Of a DNA stretch of 48,646 nt, positions 741 to 26,620 are shown piece after piece. Numbering within the stretch: the stretch's first letter is position 1; every line of letters begins with the position of its first letter. Origin of the DNA: an uncultured Mycoplasmatota bacterium (GTDB lineage: Bacteria; Bacillota_I; Bacilli_A; RF39; UBA660); assembly GCA_946486465.1 (NCBI GenBank), contig CAMLTY010000003.1, positions 1-48,646 on the forward strand. The letters are read 5' to 3'. The notes under the pieces were generated by a model. It saw only the letters and a list, made by a program, of their open reading frames with translations, made no database searches and was not told where the DNA came from. A program made the translations under genes and the position numbers.

Positions 741-756
741 GAAGTGTAATAATTAT

Positions 757-1329: not shown

Positions 1330-1398
1330 CAATCTCTTTAAATTATTCTTTAGTTTTGTTATACTTAAGTAGAAAAGATACGAAAGAGAGTGGTAGTT

Positions 1399-3675: not shown

Positions 3676-3676
3676 T

Positions 3677-3705
3677 AAAGAGATTTCTTGATGATGTCTC
3701 TTTTT
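3677..3705 (+). terminator. Putative intrinsic terminator after ftsK
   Basis: AAAGAGA (3677-3683) pairs with TCTCTTT (3697-3703), followed by Ts. The loop is rather long at 13 nt. Confidence 0.5.
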
Positions 3706-3752
3706 CTTTATAATTATTTATGCTAAAATATGTTGTGAAAAGGACTGATGTT

Positions 3753-4586: not shown

Positions 4587-4591
4587 GTGAT

Positions 4592-5779: not shown

Positions 5780-5812
5780 ACTTTCAATATAAATTAATAA
5801 GGAGAAGTAGTT

Positions 5813-6181
5813 ATGAGTAGTAAAGAATATTATTATGTTCCAGTTTATGCAATGCTTGCCGAAGATTTTGTTTGTGAGGAAATTGAATTTAAGTTTTTAG
5901 ATAAGATAATAGTTTCTGCAACTAAAAATGGTTATGAAGAGTTAGATGGCTTTAATAACTTTGTTATCTTAAAGTCTAAAAGAGATGAAAGTAAGAAATT
6001 AAATATTGTTAATTATGATGAGTGTCTATATTTAAATGAAGATGATTTTACTGAAGAAAATATGGTAGTAATTGATGATAGCTTTAACAGAGATAATTAT
6101 GTTAAAGATAATTTTGATAATTTTATAAAGATGAAAAGGGGAAATGTGAAAACTAAAAAGTATTATACAGGGAAGAAGTGA
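5813..6181 (+). CDS. Hypothetical acidic protein (122 aa)
   Basis: ORF with an AAGGAGAAG RBS. No family recognised. Confidence 0.6.
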   Translation: MSSKEYYYVPVYAMLAEDFVCEEIEFKFLDKIIVSATKNGYEELDGFNNFVILKSKRDESKKLNIVNYDECLYLNEDDFTEENMVVIDDSFNRDNYVKDNFDNFIKMKRGNVKTKKYYTGKK

Positions 6182-6185
6182 TTTA

Positions 6186-7310
6186 ATGGGAAGTTTTGAG
6201 AAAGCAAAGAAGAACTTTTTAAGGAAAGAAAAAGATTTAAGTCCTTATGCTACTAAAAGTAGTGATGCTGTTAGGTTTAAAGAAGAAAAGGAAGATATTA
6301 GGCCTCCATTTTTTCATGATATAGATAGAATAATACATTCTTTGTCTTATACAAGATACTTGAATAAGACTCAAGTTTATACACTAAACTCTAATGACCA
6401 TGTCAGTAGAAGAATTACTCATGTTCAGTTAGTTAGTAAGATTGCAAGGACAATAGGTAGGGCTTTAAACTTAAATGAAGACTTAATAGAAGCGATTGCC
6501 TTAGGTCATGATATTGGTCACACTCCTTTAGGACATACAGGGGAAGCGATATTAAATAGATTATCTTTAAAAGAACTAGGAGAGTATTTCGCTCACAATA
6601 TTCAAGGTGTAAGATATTATATGGATGTTGCAAAAGATGGAGAAGGGCTTAATTTAACACTACAAACATTGGATGGTATTATGACTCATAATGGGGAGAT
6701 GTTAAGTCCTATCTATGAACCTATGGCTAAAGATAAAGAAGAATTCTTAAGAGAATATAACGAAAGTTATAAAGACTTAGAGAAATCTAAAACTTATCGT
6801 CCTATGACTTTAGAAGGTTGTGTAGTTAGAATTAGTGATATTATTGGATATATTGGTAGAGACATAGAAGATGCTATTATGATAGATAGATTTAAAAGAA
6901 GTGATATACCGGAAAGTATAAGAGATGTATTAGGTGATAATAATAGAGATATTGTTAATACTATTGTCTTAGATATTATTAATGAAAGTATAGATAAACC
7001 TTATATTAAGATGAGTGATAAAGTCTATAAAGCTCTATTCGCTTTAAAGAAATTTAACAATGAAAATATCTATAAGTATTCTATGACTAAAGAAGAATTA
7101 GATTATTATGAAGCTGGTATCAATAAACTATATAATATCTATTTAGATGATATAAAGACAAATAATAAAGAAAGTGATATCTATAAAATATTTTTAAATC
7201 ATCAAGATAAAAGATATTTAGAATCTACTAATATTAAAAGATGGGTGATAGATTATATCGCTGGTATGACTGATGACTTTTTGATAAGAGAGATTAAAAA
7301 TCATGAGTAG
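6186..7310 (+). CDS. HD-domain dNTP triphosphohydrolase (dGTPase-like)
   Basis: RITHVQLVSKIARTIGRAL...ALGHDIGHTPLGHTGE and ISDIIGYIGRDIEDA are HD/dGTPase family signatures. Confidence 0.8.
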   Translation: MGSFEKAKKNFLRKEKDLSPYATKSSDAVRFKEEKEDIRPPFFHDIDRIIHSLSYTRYLNKTQVYTLNSNDHVSRRITHVQLVSKIARTIGRALNLNEDLIEAIALGHDIGHTPLGHTGEAILNRLSLKELGEYFAHNIQGVRYYMDVAKDGEGLNLTLQTLDGIMTHNGEMLSPIYEPMAKDKEEFLREYNESYKDLEKSKTYRPMTLEGCVVRISDIIGYIGRDIEDAIMIDRFKRSDIPESIRDVLGDNNRDIVNTIVLDIINESIDKPYIKMSDKVYKALFALKKFNNENIYKYSMTKEELDYYEAGINKLYNIYLDDIKTNNKESDIYKIFLNHQDKRYLESTNIKRWVIDYIAGMTDDFLIREIKNHE

Positions 7311-14977: not shown

Positions 14978-17938
14978 ATGTTCAATATGCTTTATGTTAA
15001 GAGTAATTACTCTCTTTTATCTAGTCTTTTAACAATAGATGATATTATAGATTACAACATTAAAAATAATAGAACTAGTGCTGTTATTTGTGATGATAAT
15101 ATGTATGGAACAATGGAGTTTATTAAGAAGTGTAATCTTAAGAACATAAAACCTGTTGTTGGTTTAGAAGTTTCTATTAATAATTATAAAATCTTACTAT
15201 ATATAAAAAATTATCAAGGTTACCTTAATCTAATTAAAATATGTACAAGAGTAAATGATAATAGTAAAACTTTAGAAGATATTATTAACTATAAAGATAA
15301 TCTTTTCTTTTTAGTTCCTTATTCTAGTTTAGACTTTTACTTAGAATATAGAGATAAAATTAAGGATATTTATCTTGGCTTTAGTAATAAGAAAGAAGAA
15401 AGTGAGGCTTTAATTATTACTAAAGATATAGTTTATTTAAAGCCTTGTTTATATAAGAGTAGGGAATATAGTAATTATTTAAAATATTTATATTTAATTC
15501 GTGATGGTAAGACTATAAATGATAATATTAGTTATGATACTTTAAATAAAGAATTAGAAGTTACTGATATTATTAATACTTATGAAAATATAGGACTACT
15601 TAATACTTTAAAAATAGTAGATGAATGTATTTTAGAGTTTCCTAAACCTAGTTTATTATTACCTATATATGAATGTCCTAAGGGAGTAGATTCATCTATT
15701 TATTTAATGAGTCTTGCTAAAGCAGGTCTATCTAAAAGACTTAATAATAATGTTACTAAAGATTATCTTGATAGATTAAGTTATGAACTTAATATCATTA
15801 ATAATATGGGCTTTGCTAACTATTTTCTTGTTGTTTATGACTTTATTAGATATGCTAAAAAGAAAGGAATATTAGTAGGGCCTGGTAGAGGTAGTGCAGC
15901 AGGTAGTTTAGTAGCATACTCTCTTGGTATTACGGAAATAGATCCTTTAAAATATAACTTACTATTTGAAAGATTTTTAAATCCTGAACGTAAGACTATG
16001 CCTGATATAGACACAGATATTCCTGATATATATAGAGATGATATTATTAATTATGTTACTGAAAAATATGGTAAAAAAAGAGTATCTGGTATCGTTACCT
16101 TTGGTACTCTTGCTGCTAAACAAGTGTTAAGAGATGTATCTCGTATATTTAGTGTACCTTTATATAAAGTAGATAGGCTAACATCTTTTATACCTGTTAT
16201 GTCTCATAAGAAGTTAGAGGAGTTTTATAGGGAAAATGAGAAGTTTAGAGCATATATAAATAGCGATGAAACATTATCTAAAGTCTATAAAGTCGCTTCT
16301 ATTATCGAAGGCTTTCCAAGACAGATTGGAACACATGCTGCGGGTATTGTTATGTGTAAGAAGGACTTAGATGAAGTTATTCCTTTAACTAAAAGTGATG
16401 ATATGTACTTAACAGGATATTCTATGAACTATTTAGAAGAGTTAGGTCTATTAAAGATGGATTTTCTAGGGATTAGAAATCTTACTATTATTATGAATGT
16501 CATGGATATGGTTTATAAAACTAGAGGTGAAAGAATAGAGTTTAATGATATTCCTCTAGATGATAGAGATACTTATACTTTATTTGCAAGAAGTGATACT
16601 AGTGGTATCTTTCAATTTGAATCTAATGGAATGAGAGGTTTCTTAAGAAAGCTTAAACCTAGTAGTTTTGATGATTTAATCGCAGCGATTGCTCTATTTA
16701 GACCTGGTCCTGCTGAAAATATAGATTTATATATAGCAAGAAAAGAAGGAAGAGAGAAAGTTGTATATCAAGATAAGTCTTTAGAGCCTATTTTAAAAGA
16801 AACATATGGTATTATGATATATCAAGAACAAATAATGCAAGTTGCAAACATATATGCAGGTTATACATTAGGAGAAGCGGATATTTTAAGACGGGCGATT
16901 AGTAAGAAAAAAGTAGATGTTTTGAAGAATGAAGAAAGTAAATTTATAAGTAAAGCGAAAGCGTTAGGACATGATGAGAGTATTTCTAAAACAATATTTG
17001 CAAGCATCTTAAAATTCGCCGGTTATGGTTTTAATAAATCCCATGCTGTTGCATACTCTCTAGTCGCTTATAAAATGGCTTATTTAAAAGTACATTATAA
17101 GTTAGAGTTCTATGCTAATCTTTTAAATAATGTTATAGGAGCTTCCTCTAAAATGCAAGAATACTTAAGAGAGATAAGAAGTCATGATTTGAAAGTATTA
17201 AAGCCTGATATAAATAAAAGTACTAATAGATTTGTTATTGATGGTAATAATATAATCTTTCCGTTTTCTACTATTAAAGGTGTAGGAACAAGTGTTTCTA
17301 GTTTGGTATTGAGGTCAAGAGATAAAGAATTTACTGATATATATGATGCTTTTTCTAAATTAGTTAGAGGAGGAGTTACTAAAAAACAATTAGAGTCTTT
17401 AATAAAAGCTGATGCTTTTAGAAATTTAGGGTATAATAAAAAAACATTAATTACTAATTTAGATAGTTTAGTTAATTATGGAACTTTAACTATAGATTTA
17501 GATGAGAGCTTAGTATTAAAGCCAGAGATAATTATTACTAATGAATTTCCTAATAGTGTTTTATTAGAACAAGAAGAAGATTGCTTTGGTTTTTATATTA
17601 GTAATCATCCTGTAACTGCATATAAGAGTAAGTATCAAAATATTATAAGTATTAATAATTTAAGTAATTACTTTAATAGAATAGTTAATGTTATGGTAAT
17701 GGTAGAGAAAGTTAAAGCGATTAAGACTAAGAAAAATGAAGATATGGCTTTCATAACTGCTAGTGATGAGACAGGGCAGGTTGATTTTATCTTCTTTCCT
17801 AGAGTATATAAAAATAATATGGATATTAAAAAAGGAGATATTTGTATATTTACAGGAACAGTAGAAAAAAGATATGATGAATTACAATTAGTAGTTAGTA
17901 AAATTAATTATATAAGGAGAGAAAATGAAGAAGAGTAA
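14978..17938 (+). CDS. dnaE: DNA polymerase III alpha subunit, DnaE type (short, ~986 aa)
   Basis: GPGRGSAAGSLVAYSLGITEIDP, MPDIDTD, GTHAAG, DFLGIRNLT, FNKSHAVAYS and a C-terminal OB fold. ATG 14978 follows AAAGGAGAG. Confidence 0.95.
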   Translation: MFNMLYVKSNYSLLSSLLTIDDIIDYNIKNNRTSAVICDDNMYGTMEFIKKCNLKNIKPVVGLEVSINNYKILLYIKNYQGYLNLIKICTRVNDNSKTLEDIINYKDNLFFLVPYSSLDFYLEYRDKIKDIYLGFSNKKEESEALIITKDIVYLKPCLYKSREYSNYLKYLYLIRDGKTINDNISYDTLNKELEVTDIINTYENIGLLNTLKIVDECILEFPKPSLLLPIYECPKGVDSSIYLMSLAKAGLSKRLNNNVTKDYLDRLSYELNIINNMGFANYFLVVYDFIRYAKKKGILVGPGRGSAAGSLVAYSLGITEIDPLKYNLLFERFLNPERKTMPDIDTDIPDIYRDDIINYVTEKYGKKRVSGIVTFGTLAAKQVLRDVSRIFSVPLYKVDRLTSFIPVMSHKKLEEFYRENEKFRAYINSDETLSKVYKVASIIEGFPRQIGTHAAGIVMCKKDLDEVIPLTKSDDMYLTGYSMNYLEELGLLKMDFLGIRNLTIIMNVMDMVYKTRGERIEFNDIPLDDRDTYTLFARSDTSGIFQFESNGMRGFLRKLKPSSFDDLIAAIALFRPGPAENIDLYIARKEGREKVVYQDKSLEPILKETYGIMIYQEQIMQVANIYAGYTLGEADILRRAISKKKVDVLKNEESKFISKAKALGHDESISKTIFASILKFAGYGFNKSHAVAYSLVAYKMAYLKVHYKLEFYANLLNNVIGASSKMQEYLREIRSHDLKVLKPDINKSTNRFVIDGNNIIFPFSTIKGVGTSVSSLVLRSRDKEFTDIYDAFSKLVRGGVTKKQLESLIKADAFRNLGYNKKTLITNLDSLVNYGTLTIDLDESLVLKPEIIITNEFPNSVLLEQEEDCFGFYISNHPVTAYKSKYQNIISINNLSNYFNRIVNVMVMVEKVKAIKTKKNEDMAFITASDETGQVDFIFFPRVYKNNMDIKKGDICIFTGTVEKRYDELQLVVSKINYIRRENEEE

Positions 17939-18404
17939 TATTATTTTATCGAGTTTATTAGTTATAGTTTTATTAGGATTAGATTTAGGTTTAAAATATA
18001 TAGTTAGTACTTATTTAACATCTGTTAATATTATAGATAACTTCTTTTCTTTAACTTATGTTTTAAATGATGGGGCGGCATTTTCTCTATTTGCAAGTAG
18101 AACTTATCTATTAATACTTATCGCTATAATTTGTTTGTTCTTTATAATTTATGAGTTAAAGAATAACTTGGATGATAGAGTCCTTTCAATAGGCTATTCT
18201 TTAGTCTTAGCAGGATTATTAGGTAATTTTATAGATAGATTAATAGATGGTTATATAGTAGATTATTTATCATTTAAAATACTAGGATATAACTATCCTA
18301 TCTTTAACTTTGCCGATATCCTAATAGTGGTTGGAATAATTATCGTAATAATAAAAGAAATAATAAAAGAAAGAGGTAAAAAAGATGAAGTTAGAAGTAA
18401 GTAG
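17925..18404 (+). CDS. lspA: Lipoprotein signal peptidase II
   Basis: NDGAAFS, GNFIDRL and FNFADI motifs, with four TM segments. Confidence 0.9.
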   Translation: MKKSNIILSSLLVIVLLGLDLGLKYIVSTYLTSVNIIDNFFSLTYVLNDGAAFSLFASRTYLLILIAIICLFFIIYELKNNLDDRVLSIGYSLVLAGLLGNFIDRLIDGYIVDYLSFKILGYNYPIFNFADILIVVGIIIVIIKEIIKERGKKDEVRSK

Positions 18405-19275
18405 TGAAGGAAATAGACTAGATAGTTATATTGCAAGTAATAGTGATTTATCTAGGAGTAGAGTGTCTAAGTTAATTAGTGATGGTAAAATACTTGTTAA
18501 TGGTAAAGAGAAAAATGCTAGTTATAAAGTAAAACTAGGAGATGTTATTGAAGTAAGTCTTGATGAAGAGATAAATCTAGAAAACCTTGAACCTACTAAT
18601 ATTCCTCTTGATATTGTTTATGAAGATGAATACTTAATGATTATTAATAAACAAAGTGGACTTGTAGTTCATCCTGCTCCAGGACATGTTACTGATACTT
18701 TAGTTAATGCTCTTATTTATCACTCTAAAGTAAGTAAAGATGGTACCTTTAGACCAGGTATTGTTCATAGACTTGATAAAGATACAAGTGGTTTAATGGT
18801 AGTTGCAAAAGATGCTAAAACTATGGAATTACTTAGTGATATGATTAAAAATAAAAAAATAGAAAGACATTATCTTGCTATAGTTGATGGAGTTATCTTG
18901 CATGAGACTGGTACTATTGATGCTCCTATTGGAAGAGATGAAGTTAATAGACAAAAGATGGTAGTAACTGCTCATAATAGTAAAGATGCAATAACTAATT
19001 TTAGAGTATTAAAGAGATTTAAAAATAATACTTTAATAGAATGTATCTTAGAAACAGGTAGAACTCATCAGATAAGAGTACATCTTAACTACATTAAACA
19101 TCCTGTTAGTAATGATCCTTTGTATGGAAATCATAAAAATGTAACAGAGTTTGGACAAATGTTACATTCTAAGAGTATTAGATTTATACATCCTATGACA
19201 GGAAAAGAGTTATATTTTGAACAAGAGCCTCCTAAAGAATTTTTAGATTATTTAAAGAGTTTGGAGAGTGAATAA
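18385..19275 (+). CDS. rluD: 23S rRNA pseudouridine synthase, RluD/RluA family
   Basis: N-terminal S4 domain, HRLDKDTSGLMVVAK and GRTHQIRVH. Confidence 0.9.
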   Translation: MKLEVSSEGNRLDSYIASNSDLSRSRVSKLISDGKILVNGKEKNASYKVKLGDVIEVSLDEEINLENLEPTNIPLDIVYEDEYLMIINKQSGLVVHPAPGHVTDTLVNALIYHSKVSKDGTFRPGIVHRLDKDTSGLMVVAKDAKTMELLSDMIKNKKIERHYLAIVDGVILHETGTIDAPIGRDEVNRQKMVVTAHNSKDAITNFRVLKRFKNNTLIECILETGRTHQIRVHLNYIKHPVSNDPLYGNHKNVTEFGQMLHSKSIRFIHPMTGKELYFEQEPPKEFLDYLKSLESE

Positions 19276-19280
19276 AAAAA

Positions 19281-19310
19281 TTGACTAATATATGATATTT
19301 AGTGTAATAT
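19281..19310 (+). promoter_or_regulatory. Putative sigma-A promoter of the DUF5680-ASCH operon
   Basis: TTGACT (19281-19286), an 18-nt spacer, then TAATAT (19305-19310). Confidence 0.5.
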
Positions 19311-19367
19311 ATAAGCACAGGAGCAGAAATGCTTTATACTAATGTCAGGTGTCGTTAGACATTTTAC

Positions 19368-19396
19368 AAGGTTAGTCAAAGGTGGCTAGCCTTTTT
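19368..19396 (+). terminator. Leader terminator/attenuator hairpin upstream of the 19429 ORF
   Basis: AAGGTTAG (19368-19375) pairs with CTAGCCTT (19386-19393) with one G-U pair, followed by TTTTT. It lies between the promoter and the RBS. Confidence 0.5.
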
Positions 19397-19428
19397 AATA
19401 TTTGATAATTAAAGGAGATAAATAGATT

Positions 19429-19902
19429 ATGAATATAAATAACAAAGAATTTTTAGAGTTTTTAGTGAAAGCAAAGAAAGGTACTTATGCTAATAGTAAT
19501 GCTCCTAAAGTTATACCTAGTAGATTAAAGTCAAAAGATTATGAGTTTACAGATGGCAACTTTACTTATCATGATACTTATTTTGGTGGAGTTAAGTTTA
19601 TGGGTGAAGAAGTAGTTTATTATAATGATAATATTCTTTGGGGTATGAATTATTATGGAGTTACTTTAGATGATAGTCTAACAGAAGAATTGATGGACAA
19701 AGTCTTAAGAGTCGCTCTTATGAAGGTAGGAGAAGATAAAAGTGTTATTCCTATTAGAGGTCCTAAAGAGTTTATAAATGAAGACTATCTTTATACCTTT
19801 AATGTAGATGGAGATATGGAAAACTTTGTAGGTACTGAACAGATATATAAAGATAAAAAACTAATATATGAATTAAAATGTCATGGAGGAATTATAAAGT
19901 GA
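19429..19902 (+). CDS. Hypothetical protein, DUF5680-like (assignment from memory)
   Basis: AAAGGAG RBS. The YHDTYFGGVKFMGEEVVYYNDNILWGMNYYG core resembles proteins I recall annotated as DUF5680. Confidence 0.55.
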   Translation: MNINNKEFLEFLVKAKKGTYANSNAPKVIPSRLKSKDYEFTDGNFTYHDTYFGGVKFMGEEVVYYNDNILWGMNYYGVTLDDSLTEELMDKVLRVALMKVGEDKSVIPIRGPKEFINEDYLYTFNVDGDMENFVGTEQIYKDKKLIYELKCHGGIIK

Positions 19903-20318
19903 AAGTACTTAGTTTAACAGAACCATATGCAACTTTGATAAAACTTGGTAAAAAGAAAATAGAAACTAGAAGTTTTAAGACTAATTATAGAGGAGAATTA
20001 TATATTCATGCTAGTTCTACTAAGATACCTAAAGAGTGGAAGAATAATAAAGAGTTGATGAGTCTTGTAGATGTTAATGATTTAAACTTTGGACTAATCA
20101 TTTGTAAATGTAAGTTAGTAGACTGTGTTTATATGGATGAAGAGTTTTTAGATAAAATTAAGAAAGATAAGTTAGAGTTTATTTGTGGTGATTATAGACT
20201 TGGAAGATATGCTTGGATATTAGAAGATATTGAAGTATTAGATAAACCTATATTTGCTAAAGGAAAGTTAGGTATTTGGAATTATGAAGAAGATAAATAT
20301 ATAATGGAGGAAAAATGA
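19899..20318 (+). CDS. ASCH-domain (PUA-like fold) protein
   Basis: VLSLTEPYATLIKLGKKKIETRSF...GELYIHAS is an ASCH-like N-terminus. GTG 19899 overlaps the upstream TGA (GTGA) and follows GGAGGA by 8 nt. The listed ATG 19878 is the alternative start. Confidence 0.65.
   Translation: MKVLSLTEPYATLIKLGKKKIETRSFKTNYRGELYIHASSTKIPKEWKNNKELMSLVDVNDLNFGLIICKCKLVDCVYMDEEFLDKIKKDKLEFICGDYRLGRYAWILEDIEVLDKPIFAKGKLGIWNYEEDKYIMEEK
20258..20295 (+). repeat. Left copy of a perfect 38-bp direct repeat (TAAAGGAAAGTTAGGTATTTGGAATTATGAAGAAGATA)
   Basis: Identical to 21338-21375. The flanking bases differ on both sides. Confidence 0.95.
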
Positions 20319-21340
20319 TAGAAAATAATGATAAATATTTTGAATTATTAAATGATATTAAAAGAACACTAATAACGACAAGAAATAAAGTAGTAGCGAA
20401 TGCAAATAAAAATTTAATTTTAATGTACTATAATATTGGTTTAAAGTTAGTTGAAAATAATAAATGGGGTTCATCTTTTATAGATACTTTGGCAAAAGAT
20501 TTGAAGATTGAATTTCCTACAATAAAAGGGATGTCTGCAAGAAATTTAAGATATATGAAGAAATTTGCAACGGAGTTTGATAATGATGAATTTTTGCAAC
20601 ATGATGTTGCAAAATTACCTTGGTCATCTATAACAACTATAATGGATCGAGTAAAAGATAAAAATGTTAGGAAATGGTATATTAAAGAGTCTGTTCAAAA
20701 TGGTTGGGCAAGACCTGTAATAATACATCAAATTGCTAGTAAATTGTATGAAAGACAGGCATTATTAGAAAATAAAATTACTAATTTTGATACAACATTA
20801 AAATCTCCTAATAATGAACAAATAAAGGAATTATCAAAAGACCCATATATTTTTGATTTTATAACAACTAGTAATAATAAAGATTTAAAAGAATTAGATT
20901 TTGAACAAGAATTAACAAGGAATATAACAAAATTGTTATTGGAATTGGGAAATGGTTTTGCATTTATAGGAAGGCAATATCATTTAGAGATAGATAATGA
21001 AGATTATTATATTGATTTACTATTCTATAACTTAAAAGTTAGATGTTACGTTGTAATTGAATTAAAAACAACTGAATTTAAGCCTGAGTATGCAGGTAAA
21101 TTAAATTTCTATTTAAGTGCTGTTGATAAATATATTAAAACAGACAGTGATAATCCAACATTTGGAATATTACTTTGTAAAGATAAGAAAAGAGTTACAG
21201 CTGAATTAGCACTAAAAGATATAAATAAGCCTATTGGAGTAAGTGAATATAAAATTTTATCAGAGATACCTGAATTTTTAGAAAATACTTTACCTAGTAT
21301 TGAAGATATTGAAAAAAGATTAGAAGTTGAATCAGATTAA
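20315..21340 (+). CDS. PD-(D/E)xK nuclease family protein, DUF1016/YhcG-like
   Basis: The N-terminal YhcG-type helical domain (LILMYYNIGLKL...MSARNLRYMKKF) and C-terminal IDLLFYN...VVIELK (D...ExK) match that family. The start overlaps the ASCH stop (ATGA) after GGAGGA. Confidence 0.8.
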   Translation: MIENNDKYFELLNDIKRTLITTRNKVVANANKNLILMYYNIGLKLVENNKWGSSFIDTLAKDLKIEFPTIKGMSARNLRYMKKFATEFDNDEFLQHDVAKLPWSSITTIMDRVKDKNVRKWYIKESVQNGWARPVIIHQIASKLYERQALLENKITNFDTTLKSPNNEQIKELSKDPYIFDFITTSNNKDLKELDFEQELTRNITKLLLELGNGFAFIGRQYHLEIDNEDYYIDLLFYNLKVRCYVVIELKTTEFKPEYAGKLNFYLSAVDKYIKTDSDNPTFGILLCKDKKRVTAELALKDINKPIGVSEYKILSEIPEFLENTLPSIEDIEKRLEVESD

Positions 21341-21375
21341 AGGAAAGTTAGGTATTTGGAATTATGAAGAAGATA
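21338..21375 (+). repeat. Right copy of the 38-bp direct repeat
   Basis: Identical to 20258-20295. It contains the RBS region and ATG of the HAD gene. Confidence 0.95.
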
Positions 21376-22068
21376 TTAATAAGTGATTATGATGGAACAT
21401 TTTATCAAAATGGTATAGATATAAAGAAAAATATAGATAAAGTAAATGAATTTAGAACTTTAGGTAATTTATTTGTACTTGCAACAGGTAGAAGCTATGT
21501 TGATTTAAAAATAATGATAGATAAATATAAAATACCTTATGATTATTTGATTTTAAATCATGGAGCCTTACTATTATCTAAAAATTTAGAAGTTCTTAAT
21601 GTATTTATTTTAGATAAAGAGTTAGTTGTTAGTGTTTTAGAATATGCAAATAATAATAAAGATATATATGATGTAGTTTTAATTGATGTTTTTAAAAAGA
21701 AAGTAACAGATACTTCTAATGTTGTTAAAATCATGTTAAAACTATATAGTTATGATAATGCTCTTGATGTTAAAAAATATATAGATGAGAGATATGCTAA
21801 TATTAAATGTTATTATGAAAAAGAAGATAATCATTATTTAGTAGAGATTGTTTCTGTTAATGCTAGCAAGTCTTTAATGATAGAGAAGATATTAGTAAGA
21901 GAAAAAATAGTAAAGGATAATGTCTTTACTATTGGTGATGGTATTAATGATATAGATATGATTAGAAAATATAATGGTTATAGAGTTAAAAATGCTTGTG
22001 ATGAATTAAAGTCTATTACTAGTAAAGTGGTAGATAGTGTTAATTGTTTAATTAGTGAGATTATCTAA
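21364..22068 (+). CDS. HAD-IIB (Cof-type) phosphatase
   Basis: ISDYDGTF, ATGRSY and GDGINDIDM motifs. Confidence 0.85.
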   Translation: MKKILISDYDGTFYQNGIDIKKNIDKVNEFRTLGNLFVLATGRSYVDLKIMIDKYKIPYDYLILNHGALLLSKNLEVLNVFILDKELVVSVLEYANNNKDIYDVVLIDVFKKKVTDTSNVVKIMLKLYSYDNALDVKKYIDERYANIKCYYEKEDNHYLVEIVSVNASKSLMIEKILVREKIVKDNVFTIGDGINDIDMIRKYNGYRVKNACDELKSITSKVVDSVNCLISEII

Positions 22069-22133
22069 TTATATTAGAATAGGTTTATTTCTATGTTAAA
22101 ATATGCTAAAATATATAGCGAGGGGCGATGTCT

Positions 22134-23282
22134 ATGGAAGAACATATTATAGATATGAATGAGAAAAATACTCTAGCTATGAAACTTCTTCATTACTTTA
22201 TTACTGAAAAAGGGTATACTCCTATAATATTACAAGGTGCAGAAGATGAGATATGGCTTGAAAATTTAGATGAAGATTATAAAGTCGTTAGATTAGTAAT
22301 GAGATATATTCATAATGATGAACAATATAAATTTGATATATTTAAGACTAATAGAATCTTAAGAAAAATAAAGAAAAAGACTTTATCATTTAAATTAAAT
22401 ACTCTTAGCATCTTTTTAGATTTAGGTGGAGCGGTTAATTTAGATGATTTTAAAACTGATAATATAACAGCAGTTGAAGTTCATGAAGATGCTGATGTTA
22501 AGAAGAACAAATTATTAAAGTCTATTTTTCCTGATTTATCTCGTAAACTTAAATTTAATGAAGAGGGAATAGAATTATTTATTAAAGTTACTAATGATAT
22601 AAATAAACATAATCAAAAGGACCAAGAAAGGGTTGCTGATGTTTTTGCACCTAAGAAACCAATTGTTACTTATGCTTTAATTGTAATTAATATATTAGTG
22701 TTCTTTATTCCTATGCTTTTAGGTAATTCTGATATAGCAACGGCATATTTAGGTAGTTATGGACCATTTGTTAAGATGGGAGAGTATTATAGATTAATAA
22801 CAGCAGCTTTTGTACATGCTAATATTGCTCATCTTCTATTCAATATGTATGCTTTATGGATTATAGGAATGCAGTTAGAAAGCTTTATTGGTAAAGGGAG
22901 ATTCTTAGTAGTTTATCTATTCAGTGCTATTTGTGGTTCCTTATTATCAGTAGTTGTAACACCTGATGCTTTAAGTGTAGGAGCAAGTGGAGCGATATTT
23001 GGTTTACTTGGAGCCTTACTTTACTTTGGATATCATTATCGTATCTATTTAGGGACTGTTATTAAGAGCCAAATTATCCCATTGATAGTTATTAACTTAG
23101 TACTTGGCTTTATGGTACCGGGTATTGATAATGCCGCTCATATAGGAGGATTACTTGGAGGGTTTTCCATGATGATAGGAGTAGGTGTTAAATATAAGAG
23201 TAGTAGCTTTGAAAAAGTCAATGGGCTTATTGTTAGTTTGATATTCTTTGGTTTCTTAGTATATATGGCCTTATTCGCATAG
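22134..23282 (+). CDS. gluP: Rhomboid-family intramembrane serine protease (GluP/YqgP-like)
   Basis: Cytoplasmic N-terminal domain followed by TM helices. Motifs are HANIAHLLFNM, GASGAIFGLLGA and AAHIGGLLGG. Start may be ATG 22128 or 22134. Confidence 0.85.
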   Translation: MEEHIIDMNEKNTLAMKLLHYFITEKGYTPIILQGAEDEIWLENLDEDYKVVRLVMRYIHNDEQYKFDIFKTNRILRKIKKKTLSFKLNTLSIFLDLGGAVNLDDFKTDNITAVEVHEDADVKKNKLLKSIFPDLSRKLKFNEEGIELFIKVTNDINKHNQKDQERVADVFAPKKPIVTYALIVINILVFFIPMLLGNSDIATAYLGSYGPFVKMGEYYRLITAAFVHANIAHLLFNMYALWIIGMQLESFIGKGRFLVVYLFSAICGSLLSVVVTPDALSVGASGAIFGLLGALLYFGYHYRIYLGTVIKSQIIPLIVINLVLGFMVPGIDNAAHIGGLLGGFSMMIGVGVKYKSSSFEKVNGLIVSLIFFGFLVYMALFA

Positions 23283-23339
23283 GCCTTTTTCTTTAAATTG
23301 TTTTGCGAACAAAGTTTTAACAAGAGAGGAAGTGATAAC

Positions 23340-25496
23340 TTGGTAGTAGGTGTATTAGTAGAGATAACTAGTAAAAGTGTAGATAGAATCTTTGACTATA
23401 GTGTTCCTAAAAGTTTAGAACCTTTAATAGAAGTAGGCAAAAGAGTAAAGGTTCCTTTTGGTAATAGAACTTTAGTAGGATTTGTTTTAGAAAAAGATAA
23501 AAAAAGTGATGTAGATAACTTAAAAGAAATAGAAGAAGTTTTAGATGAAGAAGTAATACTTACGGAAGAGTTATTAGAACTTGGTAAATATTTAAAAGAG
23601 ACAACTTTAGCATCTTTAATTAGTTGTTATCAAGTTATGCTTCCTAAAGGGTTTAAAGCTAGTATTAAGGGTAAGGTTAATAAGAAATATCAAAAAGTAT
23701 ATTATTTAAATGCTTATGATAAGAAGTTAACAGATAAACAACAAGAGGTTGTAGAGAAGTTTAATGACAAAGAGAAGTTAAGTAGAGAAGAGTTAAAAGA
23801 TGTCTCTATATCTATTCTTAATACCTTAGTTAAAAATAATGTCTTAAGAGTAGAAGAGGAAGAAGTCTATAGATTAGATTATGAGAAAAGTGAGGGAAAA
23901 GTAAGAAAGTTAACTCCTTTGCAGGAAGAGGCAGTTAATAATATTTTAAATACTAAAAACACAGTATCTTTATTATATGGTGTTACTGGTAGCGGTAAGA
24001 CAGAAGTATATATGGAGTTAATTGATAAGTATTTAAAGAAAGGCTTGAAAAGTATTGTTTTAGTACCAGAAATATCTCTAACTCCTCAGTTAATTAAACG
24101 CTTTGAAGAAAGATTTGGAAGTAATATAGCACTTTTACACAGTGCCTTATCAGATGGTGAGAAATATGATGAATATAGAAGAATTGTAAAAGGTGAAGTA
24201 GATATTGTAATAGGTGCTAGAAGTGCCGTCTTCGCTCATTTATCTAATCTTGGTCTTATTATTATAGATGAGTGTCATAGTGATTCTTATAAACAAGATA
24301 ATAATCCTAGATATAATGCTAAAGATGTGGCGATAAAAAGAGCGAAAGATTTAGGAGCTAAAGTAGTACTTGGTAGTGCCACACCTATGTTAGAAGAGTA
24401 TGCTAGAGGACTAAAAAATGTCTTTAATCTAGTAACATTAGAAAAAAGAGTCAATGGTAAAGCGTTACCTAAAGTAGAGTTAATAGATATGAATAAAGAA
24501 GTAGGTAAAGCTAAGGGACATTTCTCACTACCTTTAATAGATGAAATTAATAAGACAATAGATAGAGGTGAACAAGTAATACTTTTATTAAATAGAAGAG
24601 GCTATTCTTCATTTGTTACTTGTTCTAATTGTGGAGAGAGCGTTAAATGTCCTAACTGTGATATAACTTTAACATATCATAAGAGTAGTAACATCTTAAG
24701 ATGCCACTACTGTGGTTATGCAACTAAGTATGAAGTTACTTGCCCTAAGTGTCATGAGAAGTCACTAAAAGATTTAGGTGTTGGAACAGAAAAGGTAGAA
24801 GAAGAAATAAATTGTATTTTCCCTAAGGCAAGAGTCCTTAGAATGGATGTTGATACTACTAGTAGGAAAGGAGCTCATAAAAAAATAGTTGATGCTTTTG
24901 CAAGAGGGGAAGCCGATATCCTGCTAGGTACTCAGATGGTTGCTAAAGGCCTTGACTTTCCTAATGTTACTTTAGTAGGAGTAATAAATGCTGATACCTC
25001 ACTTATGCTTCCTGACTTTAGAAGTAGTGAGAAAACATTTGATTTACTTAGTCAAGTAGCAGGAAGAGCTGGTAGAAGTGAAAGAGAAGGTAAAGTTATA
25101 TTCCAGACCTTCAATGAAGATAATTATGCTATTAAGTGTGCTAAGGAGAATGATTATAAGTCATTTTATAAAGAAGAGATGAAAGTAAGAAAATTAATGA
25201 AATATCCTCCTTACTATTATCTTGTATCTTTAAACATCTCTAGTAAAGATAGTAAACAAGCTTTAATAGAAGCGAAAAAGTGTGAGAAAGTCTGTCAAAA
25301 GTATTTAGATAAAACTATTATTTTAGGACCTAGTCCTGCCTCTATCTTTAAAAAGCAGAACATTTATTACTATCAATTAATATTAAAATATCAGTATCAA
25401 GATAATATTCACGAAGTCTTAGAAAAACTAGTAGAGTATTATGCTACTATAAATAAAGTTAACTTAGATGTTGACTTTAATCCAATACATTTGTAA
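23340..25496 (+). CDS. priA: Primosomal protein N' (PriA helicase)
   Basis: GVTGSGKTEVY, IIIDECH and the Cys4 zinc fingers (CSNCG..CPNCD..CHYCG..CPKCH). TTG 23340 after GAGAGGAAG gives the canonical N-terminus (VGVLVEI...FDYSVP). The listed ATG 23298 is the alternative start. Confidence 0.93.
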   Translation: MVVGVLVEITSKSVDRIFDYSVPKSLEPLIEVGKRVKVPFGNRTLVGFVLEKDKKSDVDNLKEIEEVLDEEVILTEELLELGKYLKETTLASLISCYQVMLPKGFKASIKGKVNKKYQKVYYLNAYDKKLTDKQQEVVEKFNDKEKLSREELKDVSISILNTLVKNNVLRVEEEEVYRLDYEKSEGKVRKLTPLQEEAVNNILNTKNTVSLLYGVTGSGKTEVYMELIDKYLKKGLKSIVLVPEISLTPQLIKRFEERFGSNIALLHSALSDGEKYDEYRRIVKGEVDIVIGARSAVFAHLSNLGLIIIDECHSDSYKQDNNPRYNAKDVAIKRAKDLGAKVVLGSATPMLEEYARGLKNVFNLVTLEKRVNGKALPKVELIDMNKEVGKAKGHFSLPLIDEINKTIDRGEQVILLLNRRGYSSFVTCSNCGESVKCPNCDITLTYHKSSNILRCHYCGYATKYEVTCPKCHEKSLKDLGVGTEKVEEEINCIFPKARVLRMDVDTTSRKGAHKKIVDAFARGEADILLGTQMVAKGLDFPNVTLVGVINADTSLMLPDFRSSEKTFDLLSQVAGRAGRSEREGKVIFQTFNEDNYAIKCAKENDYKSFYKEEMKVRKLMKYPPYYYLVSLNISSKDSKQALIEAKKCEKVCQKYLDKTIILGPSPASIFKKQNIYYYQLILKYQYQDNIHEVLEKLVEYYATINKVNLDVDFNPIHL

Positions 25497-25525: not shown

Positions 25526-26620
25526 ATGGAGAATTTGCCTAAGAAAATAGTTAGTATTAAAGCTAATGATGTGTTTATTGAAAAAAACATAAGAAAGTTT
25601 GGTTATACCTTGAATGAAAGAACTAATGAGGGAATTTATGTTCCTATAGCATTACCAAGATGGACTAGACCAGAAAAATCTTTTGATATTATTGATGATA
25701 GTAGAGACTTTGTTAATGGTTTTAAAGTAGTACAAACTGCTAATAAAGAATATGCTTATGTAAGAGAAGAAGATAATGAATTATTACCATATAGATATGA
25801 TATTGCCGCAGACTTTAATGAATATGGTTATGCTATGGTTGGTAAGGATTCCAAAGTTTCGTGGATAGATAGAAATTTTAGATATTTTGACTTTAATAAA
25901 GAAACATTTTTAGATGAAGAGAAAGGTGAATATGTTAGATTTAATGGTTTCTTAAGTGTTAGTGATTTTAGTAAAGGAGAGCATCCTTTATCTAAATTGT
26001 GTCGCCTTGGATATGGTAATACAGTTAGCTATCTTGGTACTGATGGTAAATTTAAGGAATTTTCTAAATACGATGGAGAAAAGATATGGGAAAATAATTC
26101 TAATAAAATCTTTTCATATTGGAGTACAGATTTTAATGATAAGGGATATGCTAATGCAAATGGGGGTAGTCTAATTCTACTATCTAGTGGTCATTATTTA
26201 ACTGCTAAAGATTTAATAAGAATTTGTGAAGAGAAAGGATTTTTAGATACTATAGGTAGCAGAATAGAAAAACAAGAACAAGAATATATTAAATTTTTAA
26301 AAGATATAGAAGAAAAAACTACAACTATTGCAGATGATTTATCTAAGCATAATAATTTAATTGCAGAATTTGGTATAGGTAGTATAGAACTTAAGAAAGA
26401 AAAATTAATTTCTAGTTATGGTAAAGATGTTTATTTAAGAGCACTAACTAATAATTCTTTAGTGTGCTTAATTGTTAGAGAAGAAATGCCTGCAGAAATA
26501 GTAGATTTAGAATTATTTCAAAGTGCTCTTGCTAAGAGAGGTATACCTTCTTATATAGATAGCGAAGAAAATGTTTTTCATTATAATGCCAATAAACATG
26601 TAAAAACCAAAAAGTTATAA
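25526..26620 (+). CDS. Hypothetical protein with WG-repeat-like segments
   Basis: Repeated F.(N/E)G(F/Y)A.V....(W/Y)..IDR-like units, for example YDIAADFNEYGYAMVGKDSKVSWIDRN. Start may be 25508 or 25526. Confidence 0.5.
   Translation: MENLPKKIVSIKANDVFIEKNIRKFGYTLNERTNEGIYVPIALPRWTRPEKSFDIIDDSRDFVNGFKVVQTANKEYAYVREEDNELLPYRYDIAADFNEYGYAMVGKDSKVSWIDRNFRYFDFNKETFLDEEKGEYVRFNGFLSVSDFSKGEHPLSKLCRLGYGNTVSYLGTDGKFKEFSKYDGEKIWENNSNKIFSYWSTDFNDKGYANANGGSLILLSSGHYLTAKDLIRICEEKGFLDTIGSRIEKQEQEYIKFLKDIEEKTTTIADDLSKHNNLIAEFGIGSIELKKEKLISSYGKDVYLRALTNNSLVCLIVREEMPAEIVDLELFQSALAKRGIPSYIDSEENVFHYNANKHVKTKKL

What the first reader, a model, noticed from the sequence alone, without database searches (positions are those of the whole stretch)
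20258..21375. Single PD-(D/E)xK nuclease gene inserted into an operon, flanked by perfect 38-bp direct repeats
Seen in the sequence: TAAAGGAAAGTTAGGTATTTGGAATTATGAAGAAGATA occurs twice (20258-20295 and 21338-21375) with divergent flanks, 1080 bp apart. Between the copies lies only the DUF1016/YhcG-like nuclease gene, which has its own GGAGGA RBS but no promoter or recombinase. Removing one repeat unit restores an ASCH gene ending ...GIWNYEEDINK-stop (TGA 21384-21386) that overlaps the ATG of the HAD gene (21364), which is a natural coupled junction. In the present state ASCH has acquired a new tail (..EEDKYIMEEK) and is ATGA-coupled to the nuclease. The HAD gene keeps its start inside the right repeat, and the left repeat retains a decoy ATG (MKKINI-stop). 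Inference: 38 bp is far longer than a transposase target-site duplication. It looks instead like the product of a single-crossover (Campbell-type) insertion of a circular one-gene cassette sharing a 38-bp att-like core, or of a gene-conversion/homing-like event. This would be a minimal mobile cassette form for YhcG-type nucleases.
Basis: partly seen in the sequence, partly recalled or inferred. Interest (0 to 1): 0.62.

Follow-up and report, generated by a model that had tools for sequence, protein, structure and literature searches.

The report
Nuclease gene insertion with duplicated target
A single nuclease gene, a candidate phage-defence gene, was inserted between two overlapping operon genes of an uncultured gut bacterium by a known but unexplained process that duplicated 38 bases of the target, and the same 1,080-base unit now sits at this one site in at least nine related species.

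Summary
A perfect 38-bp direct repeat (20258-20295 and 21338-21375) brackets one YhcG/DUF1016 PD-(D/E)xK nuclease gene and occurs nowhere else in the genome.

It is a real insertion allele. Of 53 genomes of the genus (one is named Ca. Onthousia), 9 carry the identical 1,080-bp arrangement. At least 16 carry the predicted empty site with one repeat copy, seven of these with ASCH overlapping HAD.

The insert has spread horizontally. Its synonymous divergence is 0.00-0.20, against 0.05-1.1 in flanking genes. The window's closest relatives at this locus are empty. Across 15 independent contigs, nucleotide diversity falls from 0.07 to 0.007 exactly at the first base of the left repeat.

I found no recombinase, terminal repeats or copy at any other site.

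This matches "insertion with long target duplication", described for restriction-type genes (Nobusato 2000; Furuta 2010, PMC2853133). Earlier notes of this scan report it for YhcG genes in other genomes.

A circular att-type cassette is unproven, and YhcG-specific mobility is unlikely: in the same genus a glycosyltransferase gene entered the uvrB start in the same way.

Verdict: a new member of a known kind, of moderate interest.

The parts
19429..19902 (+). DUF5680 gene, first gene of the host operon
   Evidence: Pfam PF18931, E 2e-31. It lies upstream of ASCH in most filled and empty genomes, but is displaced or missing in the G017/G022 and G020/G021 lineages. A terminator-like hairpin at 19368-19393 precedes it.
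19902..20318 (+). ASCH-domain gene with a chimeric 3' end. The native tail ...EED(I/T)NK is replaced by ...EEDKYIMEEK, read from the insert.
   Evidence: Pfam ASCH, 23 bits against a cut-off of 21.2. Tails were compared in filled and empty genomes and in database proteins.
20258..20295 (+). Left copy of the 38-bp target duplication. It holds ASCH codons and a decoy copy of the HAD start (ATG 20284, stop 20302-20304).
   Evidence: This copy is nearly invariant among the 15 contigs that carry the near-identical cassette (diversity 0.007), while the 40 bp to its left have diversity 0.07.
20296..21337 (+). Unique inserted DNA, 1042 bp. It runs from 19 nt upstream of the nuclease ATG (RBS GGAGGA at 20304-20309) to the last sense codon. 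It has no terminal inverted repeats.
   Evidence: This segment is absent from the empty-site genomes. It is 95.7-100% identical among filled species whose flanks are 77-97% identical. The inverted-repeat search found nothing at its ends.
20315..21340 (+). YhcG/DUF1016 PD-(D/E)xK nuclease gene (341 aa). Its stop codon TAA is the first three bases of the right repeat.
   Evidence: Pfam PF17761 plus PF06250. PADLOC candidate defence family PDC-S02, E 5.6e-128. Relatives end at the same position, RLExxSx-stop. dN/dS is about 0.13-0.17 between the more diverged copies.
21338..21375 (+). Right copy of the 38-bp target duplication. It carries the working HAD start codon (21364).
   Evidence: In other species this copy carries lineage-specific variants at positions 7, 25 and 26. 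Diversity is 0.023.
21364..22068 (+). HAD-IIB (Cof-type) hydrolase gene, intact downstream of the insert
   Evidence: Pfam Hydrolase_3 and NCBIfam HAD-SF-IIB. In seven empty-site genomes its ATG overlaps the end of ASCH.
18589..22040 (.). Recombinant tract of the allele class seen in other filled genomes. It is embedded in a background like that of the empty-site relatives G051 and G061.
   Evidence: Informative-site runs and segment identities. For 21376-22040: 96.2% to G053 against 84.7% and 85.3% to G051 and G061. For 22059-25361: 95.5% and 94.9% to G051 and G061 against 89.5% to G053.

Best explanation
This is an 'insertion with long target duplication' allele of a solitary YhcG-type nuclease gene. 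Host recombination carries it between species; the insert has no mobility machinery of its own.

1. Origin (inferred). A promoter-less copy of a YhcG gene was joined once, by illegitimate recombination, into the 23-bp overlap of two translationally coupled host genes (ASCH and HAD). The copy ran from about 20 nt upstream of its ATG to its own stop codon. The two junctions lie 38 bp apart in 'reverse' order, so 38 bp of target were duplicated. As a result ASCH keeps a usable 3' end, HAD keeps its start, and the nuclease is read from the operon's transcript through an ATGA overlap. The right junction shares TAA(A) between the nuclease stop and the host sequence, a microhomology.
2. Polymorphism (shown). 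All filled genomes share identical junctions and 1080-bp spacing, which points to one founding event. The allele is present or absent both among and within species.
3. Spread (shown). The insert is far younger than its flanks and is patchily distributed, so it has spread horizontally between species.
4. Vehicle (inferred). Homologous recombination of incoming DNA carries it. The left crossover falls in or at the ultra-conserved 38-bp sequence. The right crossover falls in the right repeat or the first ~100 bp of HAD. In the window's own lineage a larger tract of about 3.4 kb of 'filled-type' flank came with it.
5. Fate (partly shown). The gene is under purifying selection overall but has nonsense mutations in two lineages. 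The repeats would allow precise deletion back to the empty site (inferred).

The gene product is a PD-(D/E)xK nuclease of a candidate anti-phage family. Its function was not tested.
For: - Repeat and contents.
- Filled genomes: identical junctions and 1080-bp spacing in G000, G016, G049, G043, G020, G059, G007 and G053. G054 is split over two contigs, and one metagenome contig has the same structure.
- Exact empty sites in G062, G051, G015, G067, G008, G061 and G017. Empty sites with HAD reduced or lost in about ten more genomes.
- Same-species polymorphism: ASCH proteins P0001 (filled) and P0013 (empty) are identical for the first 130 residues. Their contigs are 97.5% (left flank) and 96-98% (right flank) identical.
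- Age of the insert: nuclease dS is 0.000 among G000, G049, G043 and G053, and at most 0.20 in any pair. The flanking genes dnaE, rluD, DUF5680, HAD, rhomboid and priA have dS 0.05-1.1. Nucleotide identity is 94.7-100% for the insert against 77-97% for flanks.
- Distribution: on a flank tree G000 groups with the empty genomes G051 and G061 (support 100/100). Filled versus empty needs at least 4 changes.
- Tract in G000: a filled-type tract spans 18589 to about 22040 inside an empty-type background.
- Step in diversity over 15 contigs:
  - 0.0705 in the 40 bp left of the repeat.
  - 0.007 in the left repeat.
  - 0-0.004 in the insert.
  - 0.023 in the right repeat.
  - 0.017, 0.027 and 0.067 in the next three 40-bp bins.
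- Example pair: G049 and G053 have 0 mismatches in 1080 bp, but mismatches at -3, -8, -12, -13, -18 and -26 to the left.
- The identical nuclease protein is indexed in 73 blocks of the contig collection. In the ten places examined ASCH is always upstream and HAD downstream in all but one (L207), with varying outer neighbours.
- No other-site copy, and no phage or plasmid carrier above 60% amino-acid identity.
- No recombinase on this contig. ComEC is encoded in the window.
- Nearest non-cassette relatives (69-88% aa) are stand-alone genes with their own upstream regions and the same stop position.
- Nonsense codons: W51* in G043, and a stop at codon 221 in G007 and in the metagenome contig.
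- The class is described in PMC2853133. Its features are repeats over 30 bp, unique in the genome, often spanning start or stop codons, no mobile-element genes, mostly in competent species, and a solitary mcrA as one example.
- In the same genus a GT2 glycosyltransferase gene (G024, G047) and a YhcG paralogue (G011) each entered the uvrB start with 176-198-bp duplications. G046 is empty there.
Against: - The founding event cannot be reconstructed, because no donor context with more than 88% identity was found.
- The very sharp left edge of the shared tract is not what random crossovers in flanking homology predict. It could instead reflect a circle or single-crossover route. It could also reflect later overwriting of flanks by resident empty alleles.
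- All genomes are metagenome-assembled. An identical 1-kb segment shared by co-occurring species could produce chimeric contigs. That would blur which flank belongs to which species, though not the identity of the insert across samples.
- DprA was not found in the 87%-complete genome, so natural competence is only plausible.
- No read-level data could be examined.
Confidence: 0.65

Rival explanations
1. Circular cassette. The 1,080-bp unit (one repeat plus the nuclease gene) is released as a circle by recombination between the two repeats. It re-inserts in other genomes by a single Campbell-type crossover at the conserved 38-bp sequence, which acts as a portable homology or att-like core.
For: - The tract shared by five species and ten further contigs starts at the first base of the left repeat and is essentially the 1,080-bp unit.
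- The left repeat travels with the insert, while the right repeat carries lineage-specific variants, as a crossover near the 5' end of the repeat would give.
- In the G020 and G007 lineages the left copy looks chimeric. Position 25 matches the lineage's own right copy. Position 36 (C) is shared with the sister cassette.
- All 9 filled genomes have the canonical repeat. The 6 genomes whose target differs at 2-3 or more positions are all empty. This is weak support and not phylogenetically independent.
- The uvrB insertions also have the anatomy of an insertion-duplication.
Against: - No circle junction has been seen, and reads could not be examined.
- On the right the shared tract fades gradually into HAD rather than stopping in the repeat.
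- In G000 about 1.7 kb of left flank and 0.7 kb of right flank are of the filled allele class.
- A 1-kb non-replicating circle has no known way to pass between cells intact.
- A circle model cannot explain the founding insertion.
- 38 bp is near the lower limit for RecA-dependent exchange (own knowledge).
Confidence: 0.2
2. Homing-like spread. The nuclease cuts empty alleles, and the break is repaired from a filled allele. This copies the gene in, as with the free-standing homing endonuclease genes of T-even phages.
For: - The cargo is a nuclease.
- The insert is much younger than its flanks, occupies a single site and is patchily distributed.
- Two lineages carry degenerate copies, as in a homing gain-decay-loss cycle.
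- Furuta et al. propose that double-strand breakage underlies this class of insertion.
Against: - Because 38 bp are duplicated, every stretch of up to 39 bp of the empty site is still present in the filled allele. Insertion therefore gives no self-protection.
- There is almost no co-conversion on the left side.
- Closest relatives and about 20 paralogue loci are ordinary stand-alone genes without repeats.
- A non-nuclease cargo (GT2) entered the uvrB start in the same way.
- I found no report of the YhcG family as homing enzymes in the papers read.
Confidence: 0.08
3. Site-specific insertion by a recombinase acting in trans. This would be integron-like, Xer-like or a large serine recombinase, with the 38-bp sequence as its attachment site.
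For: - The genome has 6 tyrosine and 7 serine recombinase genes.
- The repeat contains GTTAGGT, which fits the integron core consensus GTTRRRY (own knowledge of the consensus).
- Elsewhere YhcG genes do occur as cassettes in integron-like arrays, for example locus L142 in Fusibacter.
Against: - The repeat is ordinary coding sequence of two host genes, present once in every empty genome.
- It has no dyad symmetry, and the insert carries no attC-like element or any repeat of its own.
- No recombinase gene is linked to it.
- A 7-mer match to a degenerate consensus is expected by chance in roughly 7% of 38-mers.
- The uvrB duplications in the same genus are 176-198 bp with different end points, which is not a fixed core.
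Confidence: 0.03
4. An old, fixed local duplication, or an assembly artefact.
For: None beyond the bare existence of a repeat shorter than common assembly k-mers.
Against: - Empty sites exist.
- The insert is younger than its flanks.
- More than 15 independent assemblies from different studies give the same structure.
Confidence: 0.01

Closest known systems
Insertion with long target duplication of restriction-modification and solitary restriction-type genes (Nobusato et al. 2000, Gene 259:99, cited as ref. 37 in Furuta, Abe & Kobayashi 2010, NAR 38:2428, PMC2853133)
   Same: - A short nuclease-type gene unit with no transposase, integrase or inverted repeats.
- Flanked by direct repeats longer than 30 bp that are unique in the genome.
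- The repeat is present once at an empty site in relatives and spans a stop and a start codon.
- Solitary nuclease cargo is on record (mcrA).
- Repeat lengths of 45-47 bp are reported for Haemophilus, Thermus and Xylella.
- Most cases are in transformable species.
   Different: - The cargo here is a YhcG/DUF1016 nuclease with no methyltransferase.
- The host is an uncultured gut member of the Bacilli.
- The target is the overlap of two coupled genes.
- The data here are at population scale: 53 species plus metagenome contigs. They show inter-species spread of one founding insertion and a step in diversity at the left repeat edge. In the parts of that paper I read I saw no comparable analysis.
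- A non-nuclease cargo at a second site argues that nuclease activity is not required.
Minimal mobile elements of Neisseria (Saunders & Snyder 2002; from my own knowledge, not checked here)
   Same: - Whole-gene cassettes lie between conserved genes, with no mobility genes.
- Alternative contents occur at one site: empty, GT2 or YhcG at uvrB, and variable HAD and other genes between ASCH and rhomboid.
- Exchange is by homologous recombination of conserved flanks.
   Different: - Those elements are defined by conserved flanking genes, not by a duplicated target.
- Here the homology on one side appears to shrink to the 38-bp duplicate itself.
Campbell-type insertion-duplication and homology-facilitated illegitimate recombination in transformable bacteria (de Vries & Wackernagel 2002; Prudhomme et al. 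2002; from my own knowledge)
   Same: - The product has a duplicated host segment on both sides of foreign DNA.
- One junction shows microhomology, TAA(A).
- The host gene's 5' end is regenerated on the right (the HAD start here, the uvrB start in G011, G024 and G047).
   Different: - No circular or anchored donor has been identified.
- The laboratory events usually need longer homology and usually delete rather than duplicate recipient DNA.
Free-standing homing endonuclease genes (for example seg and mob genes of T-even phages; from my own knowledge)
   Same: - A single nuclease gene lies between conserved genes.
- It is present or absent among relatives, younger than its flanks, and shows occasional decay.
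   Different: - No target disruption.
- No left-side co-conversion.
- The family is not known to home.
- The same insertion mode is seen with a glycosyltransferase cargo.
Integron gene cassettes
   Same: One promoter-less ORF per unit, read from an upstream promoter. YhcG genes do occur in integron-like arrays elsewhere (L142).
   Different: No attC, no integrase and no array. The repeat here is host coding sequence.

Membership tests
Insertion with long target duplication (Furuta et al. 2010, PMC2853133) | Direct repeats longer than 30 bp flank the inserted unit | tested here: met
   38 bp, 38/38 identical
Insertion with long target duplication (Furuta et al. 2010, PMC2853133) | A related genome has an empty site in which the repeat occurs once and both flanks align | tested here: met
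   Seven species have ASCH, one repeat copy, then HAD. About ten more have ASCH and one repeat copy with HAD reduced or lost. One empty contig belongs to the same species as filled contigs.
Insertion with long target duplication (Furuta et al. 2010, PMC2853133) | Insert under 20 kb with no transposase, integrase, phage gene or terminal inverted repeats | tested here: met
   The 1,042-bp insert holds one ORF. No inverted repeats lie at its ends. All recombinase genes are on other contigs.
Insertion with long target duplication (Furuta et al. 2010, PMC2853133) | The repeat sequence is not a multi-copy genomic repeat | tested here: met
   Exactly two copies in the genome at up to 3 mismatches
Insertion with long target duplication (Furuta et al. 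2010, PMC2853133) | Cargo is a restriction-modification system or a solitary restriction-type gene | tested here: inconclusive
   The cargo is a PD-(D/E)xK nuclease of a candidate defence family. It has no methyltransferase, and restriction activity was not tested. The paper's first screen required R plus M genes, but it also reports solitary mcrA and orphan M genes.
Insertion with long target duplication (Furuta et al. 2010, PMC2853133) | The repeat often spans a translation start or stop, so host genes stay intact | tested here: met
   The repeat holds the last ASCH codons and the HAD start. Both ORFs are intact in the filled genomes, except that G020 has no HAD gene.
YhcG/DUF1016 PD-(D/E)xK nucleases (Pfam PF17761 + PF06250; PADLOC PDC-S02) | Full-length matches to both domain models above the curated cut-offs | tested here: met
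   126.5 and 202.5 bits against cut-offs of 32.8 and 32.5. PDC-S02 E 5.6e-128. The motif ...YIDLLFYN...VVIELK... is present.
YhcG/DUF1016 PD-(D/E)xK nucleases (Pfam PF17761 + PF06250; PADLOC PDC-S02) | Nuclease or anti-phage activity | not testable with these tools
   No solved structure of a relative was found by sequence. PDC-S02 is only a candidate family.
Transposon / insertion sequence | Transposase gene and terminal inverted repeats, with a short target duplication | tested here: not met
   No transposase and no terminal repeats. The 38-bp duplication is longer than is usual for transposons.
Integron gene cassette | An attC recombination site at the cassette end, with an integrase and attI nearby | tested here: not met
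   The insert ends at its stop codon, and the repeat is host coding DNA. No recombinase lies on the contig.
Homing endonuclease gene | Insertion interrupts the enzyme's recognition site, so filled alleles are immune | tested here: not met
   This follows from the anatomy. All windows of up to 39 bp of the empty site persist in the filled allele. A longer or distant target cannot be excluded.
Homing endonuclease gene | The enzyme cleaves the empty allele | not testable with these tools
   Needs an enzyme assay

The most novel reading that the evidence does not exclude
The duplicated target is not just a scar but the vehicle. A 'long target duplication' unit carries its own copy of an ultra-conserved host sequence. 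It can therefore be handed between species whose flanks are too diverged to recombine. This could happen as an excised circle or as a looped heteroduplex, using only general recombination. If so, this unexplained class of insertions would be a recombinase-free, portable-homology kind of mobile element. The 70-fold drop in diversity exactly at the left repeat edge would be its footprint.
Probability: 0.25. Interest if true: 0.7.

Novelty: new member of a known kind. Interest (0 to 1): 0.36.

Why it matters
The way restriction-type and defence genes enter chromosomes 'with long target duplication' has been known since 2000 but is not explained.

This locus is an unusually well-sampled case:
- One founding insertion.
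- Exact empty sites.
- Both states within one species.
- At least nine species and dozens of metagenome contigs carrying an almost invariant insert in diverged flanks.

It yields three concrete clues:
- The unit exchanged between species begins at the first base of the duplicated target.
- Nuclease activity of the cargo is probably not needed. A glycosyltransferase gene used the same route at uvrB in the same genus.
- The duplication is what lets a foreign gene be wired into an operon at a gene overlap without breaking either neighbour.

It also shows a candidate defence gene crossing species borders in small-genome gut Bacilli without any phage, plasmid or transposon.

Tried and rejected
2. 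Other-site copies: one exact-pattern scan each of metagenome contigs and viral contigs gave one same-site contig and none.
3. Donor context: the nearest relatives outside the cassette are at most 88% identical and stand alone. No ASCH-YhcG pair was found elsewhere. I therefore dropped the idea that the left junction is a native ASCH-nuclease operon brought in through an ASCH anchor.
4. Are flanking repeats general for YhcG paralogues?
   - Of 95 loci scanned, only the cassette itself, L143, L022 and the array loci L142 and L111 scored.
   - A control on 288 neighbouring genes gave 5 hits, at least four of them in repeat-array loci.
   - Enrichment could not be shown from my own sample.
5. Empty site for the 40-bp case in Deferribacterales (L143): relatives were too distant, at most 72% nt identity.
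6. Treating the DUF5680-ASCH-nuclease chain as one functional module (another first-stage note): rejected, because the nuclease is missing from most genomes that keep DUF5680-ASCH.
7. A first reading that the cassette simply rode into G000 on a 3.4-kb tract had to be qualified. Those flanks are 3-6% diverged from other filled genomes while the insert is 0-0.3% diverged.
8. Comparing G024 with G047 for a similar step at the uvrB insert was uninformative, because the two genomes are too close throughout.
Full report
**1. The observation**

The 38-mer TAAAGGAAAGTTAGGTATTTGGAATTATGAAGAAGATA occurs at 20258-20295 and 21338-21375. The two copies are identical, with starts 1080 bp apart. A search of the whole 1.40-Mb assembly (109 contigs, 87% complete), allowing three mismatches, finds only these two copies. 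The reversed-pattern control finds none.

Between the copies lies one ORF, 20315-21340 (341 aa). It matches Pfam DUF1016_N and YhcG_C over their full lengths. It also matches the PADLOC candidate-defence family PDC-S02 (E 5.6e-128).

The flanking genes are DUF5680 (19429-19902), ASCH (19902-20318), a Cof-type HAD hydrolase (21364-22068) and a rhomboid protease (22128-23282).

- The RBS GGAGGA at 20304-20309.
- The ATGA overlap of ASCH and the nuclease.
- The HAD start inside the right repeat.
- The decoy MKKINI ORF in the left repeat.
- The TGA at 21384-21386.

**2. It is an insertion, and empty sites exist**

I searched all 53 held genomes of the genus, which are one genome per species. One of them is titled Candidatus Onthousia faecipullorum and the rest are uncultured gut Bacilli.

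Filled genomes:
- Eight species carry ASCH, repeat, nuclease, repeat on one contig: G000, G016, G049, G043, G020, G059, G007 and G053. Spacing is always 1080 bp and both junctions are identical.
- HAD follows the right repeat in seven of these. G020 lacks the HAD gene.
- G054 carries the arrangement split over two contigs.
- A metagenome contig also carries it.

Empty genomes:
It reads ...TTTGCT-AAAGGAAAGTTAGGTATTTGGAATTATGAAGAAGATA(T/C)TAATAAGTGA-TTATGATGG... Here ASCH ends ...GKLGIWNYEED(I/T)NK-stop over the HAD start.
- About ten further species have one repeat copy with HAD shortened or missing.

The polymorphism also exists within a species:
- Database ASCH proteins P0001 (filled tail) and P0013 (empty tail) are identical for their first 130 residues.
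- Their contigs are 97.5% identical over 1.6 kb on the left and 96-98% on the right.

**3. The insert is much younger than its surroundings**

- Among filled species the 1,042-bp insert is 94.7-100% identical. Flanking segments are 77-97% identical.
- This is not due to constraint. Synonymous divergence of the nuclease is 0.000 among G000, G049, G043 and G053, and at most 0.20 in any pair. The six flanking genes have dS 0.05-1.1.
- On a tree of flanking DNA, G000 groups with G051 and G061, both empty (support 100/100). The filled/empty character needs at least four changes.
- The identical nuclease protein is indexed in 73 blocks of the contig collection. In the ten places examined ASCH is always upstream and HAD downstream in all but one (L207). 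Outer neighbours differ between contigs (FemAB, spoIIGA-sigE, rhomboid-priA, GNAT, dCMP deaminase).
- Between the more diverged copies dN/dS is about 0.13-0.17, so the gene has been under purifying selection.
- Two lineages nevertheless carry nonsense codons: W51* in G043, and a stop at codon 221 in G007 and its metagenome twin.

**4. How it travels**

The region is a mosaic of recombination tracts.

In G000, sites that distinguish the empty relatives (G051, G061) from filled genomes (G049, G053) show a continuous 'filled-type' tract from 18589 to about 22040. 'Empty-type' sequence lies on both sides, at 17945-18477 and at 22059-25361. The filled allele therefore sits in G000 on a recombinant segment.

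Those flanks are still 3-6% diverged from the other filled genomes, while the insert differs by 0-0.3%. The step is sharp. Nucleotide diversity over 15 independent contigs carrying the near-identical cassette class:

| Region | Diversity |
|---|---|
| 40 bp left of the left repeat | 0.0705 |
| Left repeat | 0.007 |
| Insert | 0-0.004 |
| Right repeat | 0.023 |
| Next 40-bp bin of HAD | 0.017 |
| Second 40-bp bin | 0.027 |
| Third 40-bp bin | 0.067 |

Further observations:
- G049 and G053 have no mismatch in 1,080 bp. They have six mismatches in the 26 bp before the left repeat, and mismatches at positions 7 and 25 of the right repeat.
- So the left repeat travels with the insert. The right repeat carries lineage-specific variants. 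The right edge of the shared tract fades over about 100 bp.

I read this as exchange by general homologous recombination. The conserved 38-bp sequence is an island of perfect identity in otherwise 7-10% diverged DNA, and it serves as the left arm. The right repeat plus the HAD start serve as the right arm.

The same pattern could come from two other routes, and I cannot separate the three:
- A circle of one repeat plus the gene, inserting by a single crossover.
- Later overwriting of flanks by resident empty alleles, up to the heterology.

Other points on mobility:
- ComEC is encoded in the window. DprA was not found in this incomplete genome.
- I found no element-encoded mobility. There are no terminal repeats. 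No recombinase lies on the contig; the 6 tyrosine and 7 serine recombinases are elsewhere.
- No copy at any other site was found in the genus, in 185,579 species genomes, or in metagenome or viral contigs.
- No plasmid or phage relative exceeds 60% amino-acid identity.

**5. The founding event**

- The nearest relatives outside the cassette (69-88% aa, in other uncultured Bacilli) are stand-alone genes with their own promoter-like upstream DNA. They have no flanking repeats and end at the same residue, RLExxSx-stop.
- The insert is therefore a trimmed gene copy, running from about 20 nt before the ATG to its own stop.
- That stop (TAA) is also the first three bases of the repeat. This amounts to a 3-4-nt microhomology at the right junction.
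- Both junctions are illegitimate. The 38-bp duplication is what leaves ASCH with a new 7-residue tail and HAD with its start intact.
- Because 38 bp are duplicated, every stretch of up to 39 bp of the empty site survives in the filled allele. The insertion therefore does not protect against a nuclease that recognised the empty junction. This argues against classical homing.

**6. Comparison with what is known**

Earlier notes of this scan report YhcG genes flanked by duplicated host sequence in other genomes. They cite 'insertion with long target duplication' (Nobusato et al. 2000; Furuta et al. 2010).

I read Furuta et al. (PMC2853133). The class is defined by these features:
- Restriction-type gene units under 20 kb, without mobile-element genes.
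- Flanked by direct repeats over 30 bp that are unique in the genome and present once at an empty site.
- The repeats often span a start or stop codon.
- Examples include 45-47-bp repeats and a solitary mcrA.
- Most hosts are naturally competent.
- The mechanism is unknown, and the authors suggest double-strand breakage.

Every structural criterion is met here. Only the nature of the cargo, a solitary YhcG nuclease of unknown activity, is outside the original R-plus-M screen. I therefore file it as a new member of that class.

First, in the same genus the 5' end of uvrB is another such site:
- In G011 a YhcG paralogue (about 32% identical) is inserted with a 176-bp duplication (89% identical) covering the uvrB RBS to +151.
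- In G024 and G047 a family-2 glycosyltransferase gene is inserted with a 194-198-bp duplication (93-94% identical), reaching about +180.
- G046 is empty.
- In each case the left copy keeps the native promoter and the right copy is the intact gene.
- The end points and cargoes differ, so these were independent events. One of them has no nuclease.

Second, an unrelated Deferribacterales genome has a single YhcG gene in a 1,204-bp unit with perfect 40-bp repeats, between a marR-like gene and lysS. The repeat is unique in that genome. No empty site could be found, because relatives are too distant.

In other genomes YhcG genes sit in integron-like arrays (L142, L111). That is a different, known kind of cassette.

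From my own sample of 95 YhcG loci and 288 neighbouring genes I could not show that such repeats are enriched at YhcG genes.

**8. Limits**

- All genomes are metagenome bins. A 1-kb segment shared by co-occurring species may cause chimeric joins, so single flank-to-species assignments are uncertain. For example, bin G018 holds both a filled contig of G000 type and an empty locus of another type.
Circle junctions, precise deletions and expression could not be examined.
- The activity of the nuclease and any defence role are untested.

**9. Verdict**

The insertion reading is right. The specific 'circular att cassette of YhcG nucleases' reading is only partly supported. This is a clear, well-sampled new member of an already described but mechanistically unexplained class. 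Its useful clue is that the unit of inter-species exchange begins exactly at the duplicated target.

Noticed in passing
L022 (G011:C6, reverse strand), L191 (G024:C3), L192 (G047:C1), L193 (G046:C5): The uvrB 5' end is a second insertion-with-duplication site in this genus. G011 has a YhcG paralogue with a 176-bp duplicate. G024 and G047 have a GT2 glycosyltransferase gene with 194-198-bp duplicates. G046 is empty. In G011 the paralogue is also tightly bracketed by a 28-bp direct repeat (25/28 identical) that is unique in that genome.
   Followed up: partly
L143 3874-3913 and 5078-5117 (Deferribacterales bacterium MS499-41, BNUJ01000013.1): A single YhcG gene (50% identical) lies in a 1,204-bp unit with perfect 40-bp direct repeats, between the stop of a marR-like gene and lysS. 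The repeat occurs only twice in that genome. No empty site was found because relatives are too distant.
   Followed up: partly
L142 (Fusibacter sp., OZ223306.1) 644-6554; also L111 and L147: Here YhcG is one unit in an array of single genes. The genes are separated by eight copies of an attC-like element of about 115-127 nt ending in AACGTTA, which looks like an integron-type cassette array. L111 and L147 show similar repeat-separated gene arrays.
   Followed up: no
window 15540-17912 and 25530-26071: There are further recombination tracts. This part of dnaE is 97% identical to G049 and G053 but 89% to G051 and G061. The stretch 25530-26071 is 99.8% identical to G053 but 77% to G051 and G061. 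The whole window is a fine-scale inter-species mosaic.
   Followed up: partly
between ASCH and rhomboid in relatives (L033, L041, L043, L046, L049-L052, L161): The interval is an indel hotspot. HAD has an internal deletion in G019 and G023. It is absent in G021, G010, G022, G057, G060 and G009. In G006 ASCH is cut after 155 nt and followed by about 2 kb of unrelated genes.
   Followed up: partly
G018:C95 (L029/L163) and G018:C63 (L158): One genome bin holds two versions of the locus. A 2.9-kb filled contig is 97-100% identical to the window. A complete empty locus is 84-89% identical. This suggests mixed populations or bin contamination. Contigs also tend to break at the cassette (G016:C87 is 3.4 kb; G054 is split).
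   Followed up: no
G000 contigs C41, C33, C10, C107 (L002-L006): This 1.4-Mb genome has four more YhcG paralogue loci (32-44% identical). Two are interrupted by stop codons (C41 and C10). A class-level relative, G033, has 15 matches.
   Followed up: no
window 20276-20305: The left junction creates a sigma-70-like site, TTGGAA-18-TATAAT. Its -35 lies in the repeat and its -10 in the insert. Such matches are at chance density in this AT-rich DNA.
   Followed up: no
window 19368-19393: A terminator-like hairpin followed by a T-run lies between rluD and the DUF5680 gene. It marks the start of the operon that now carries the nuclease.
   Followed up: no
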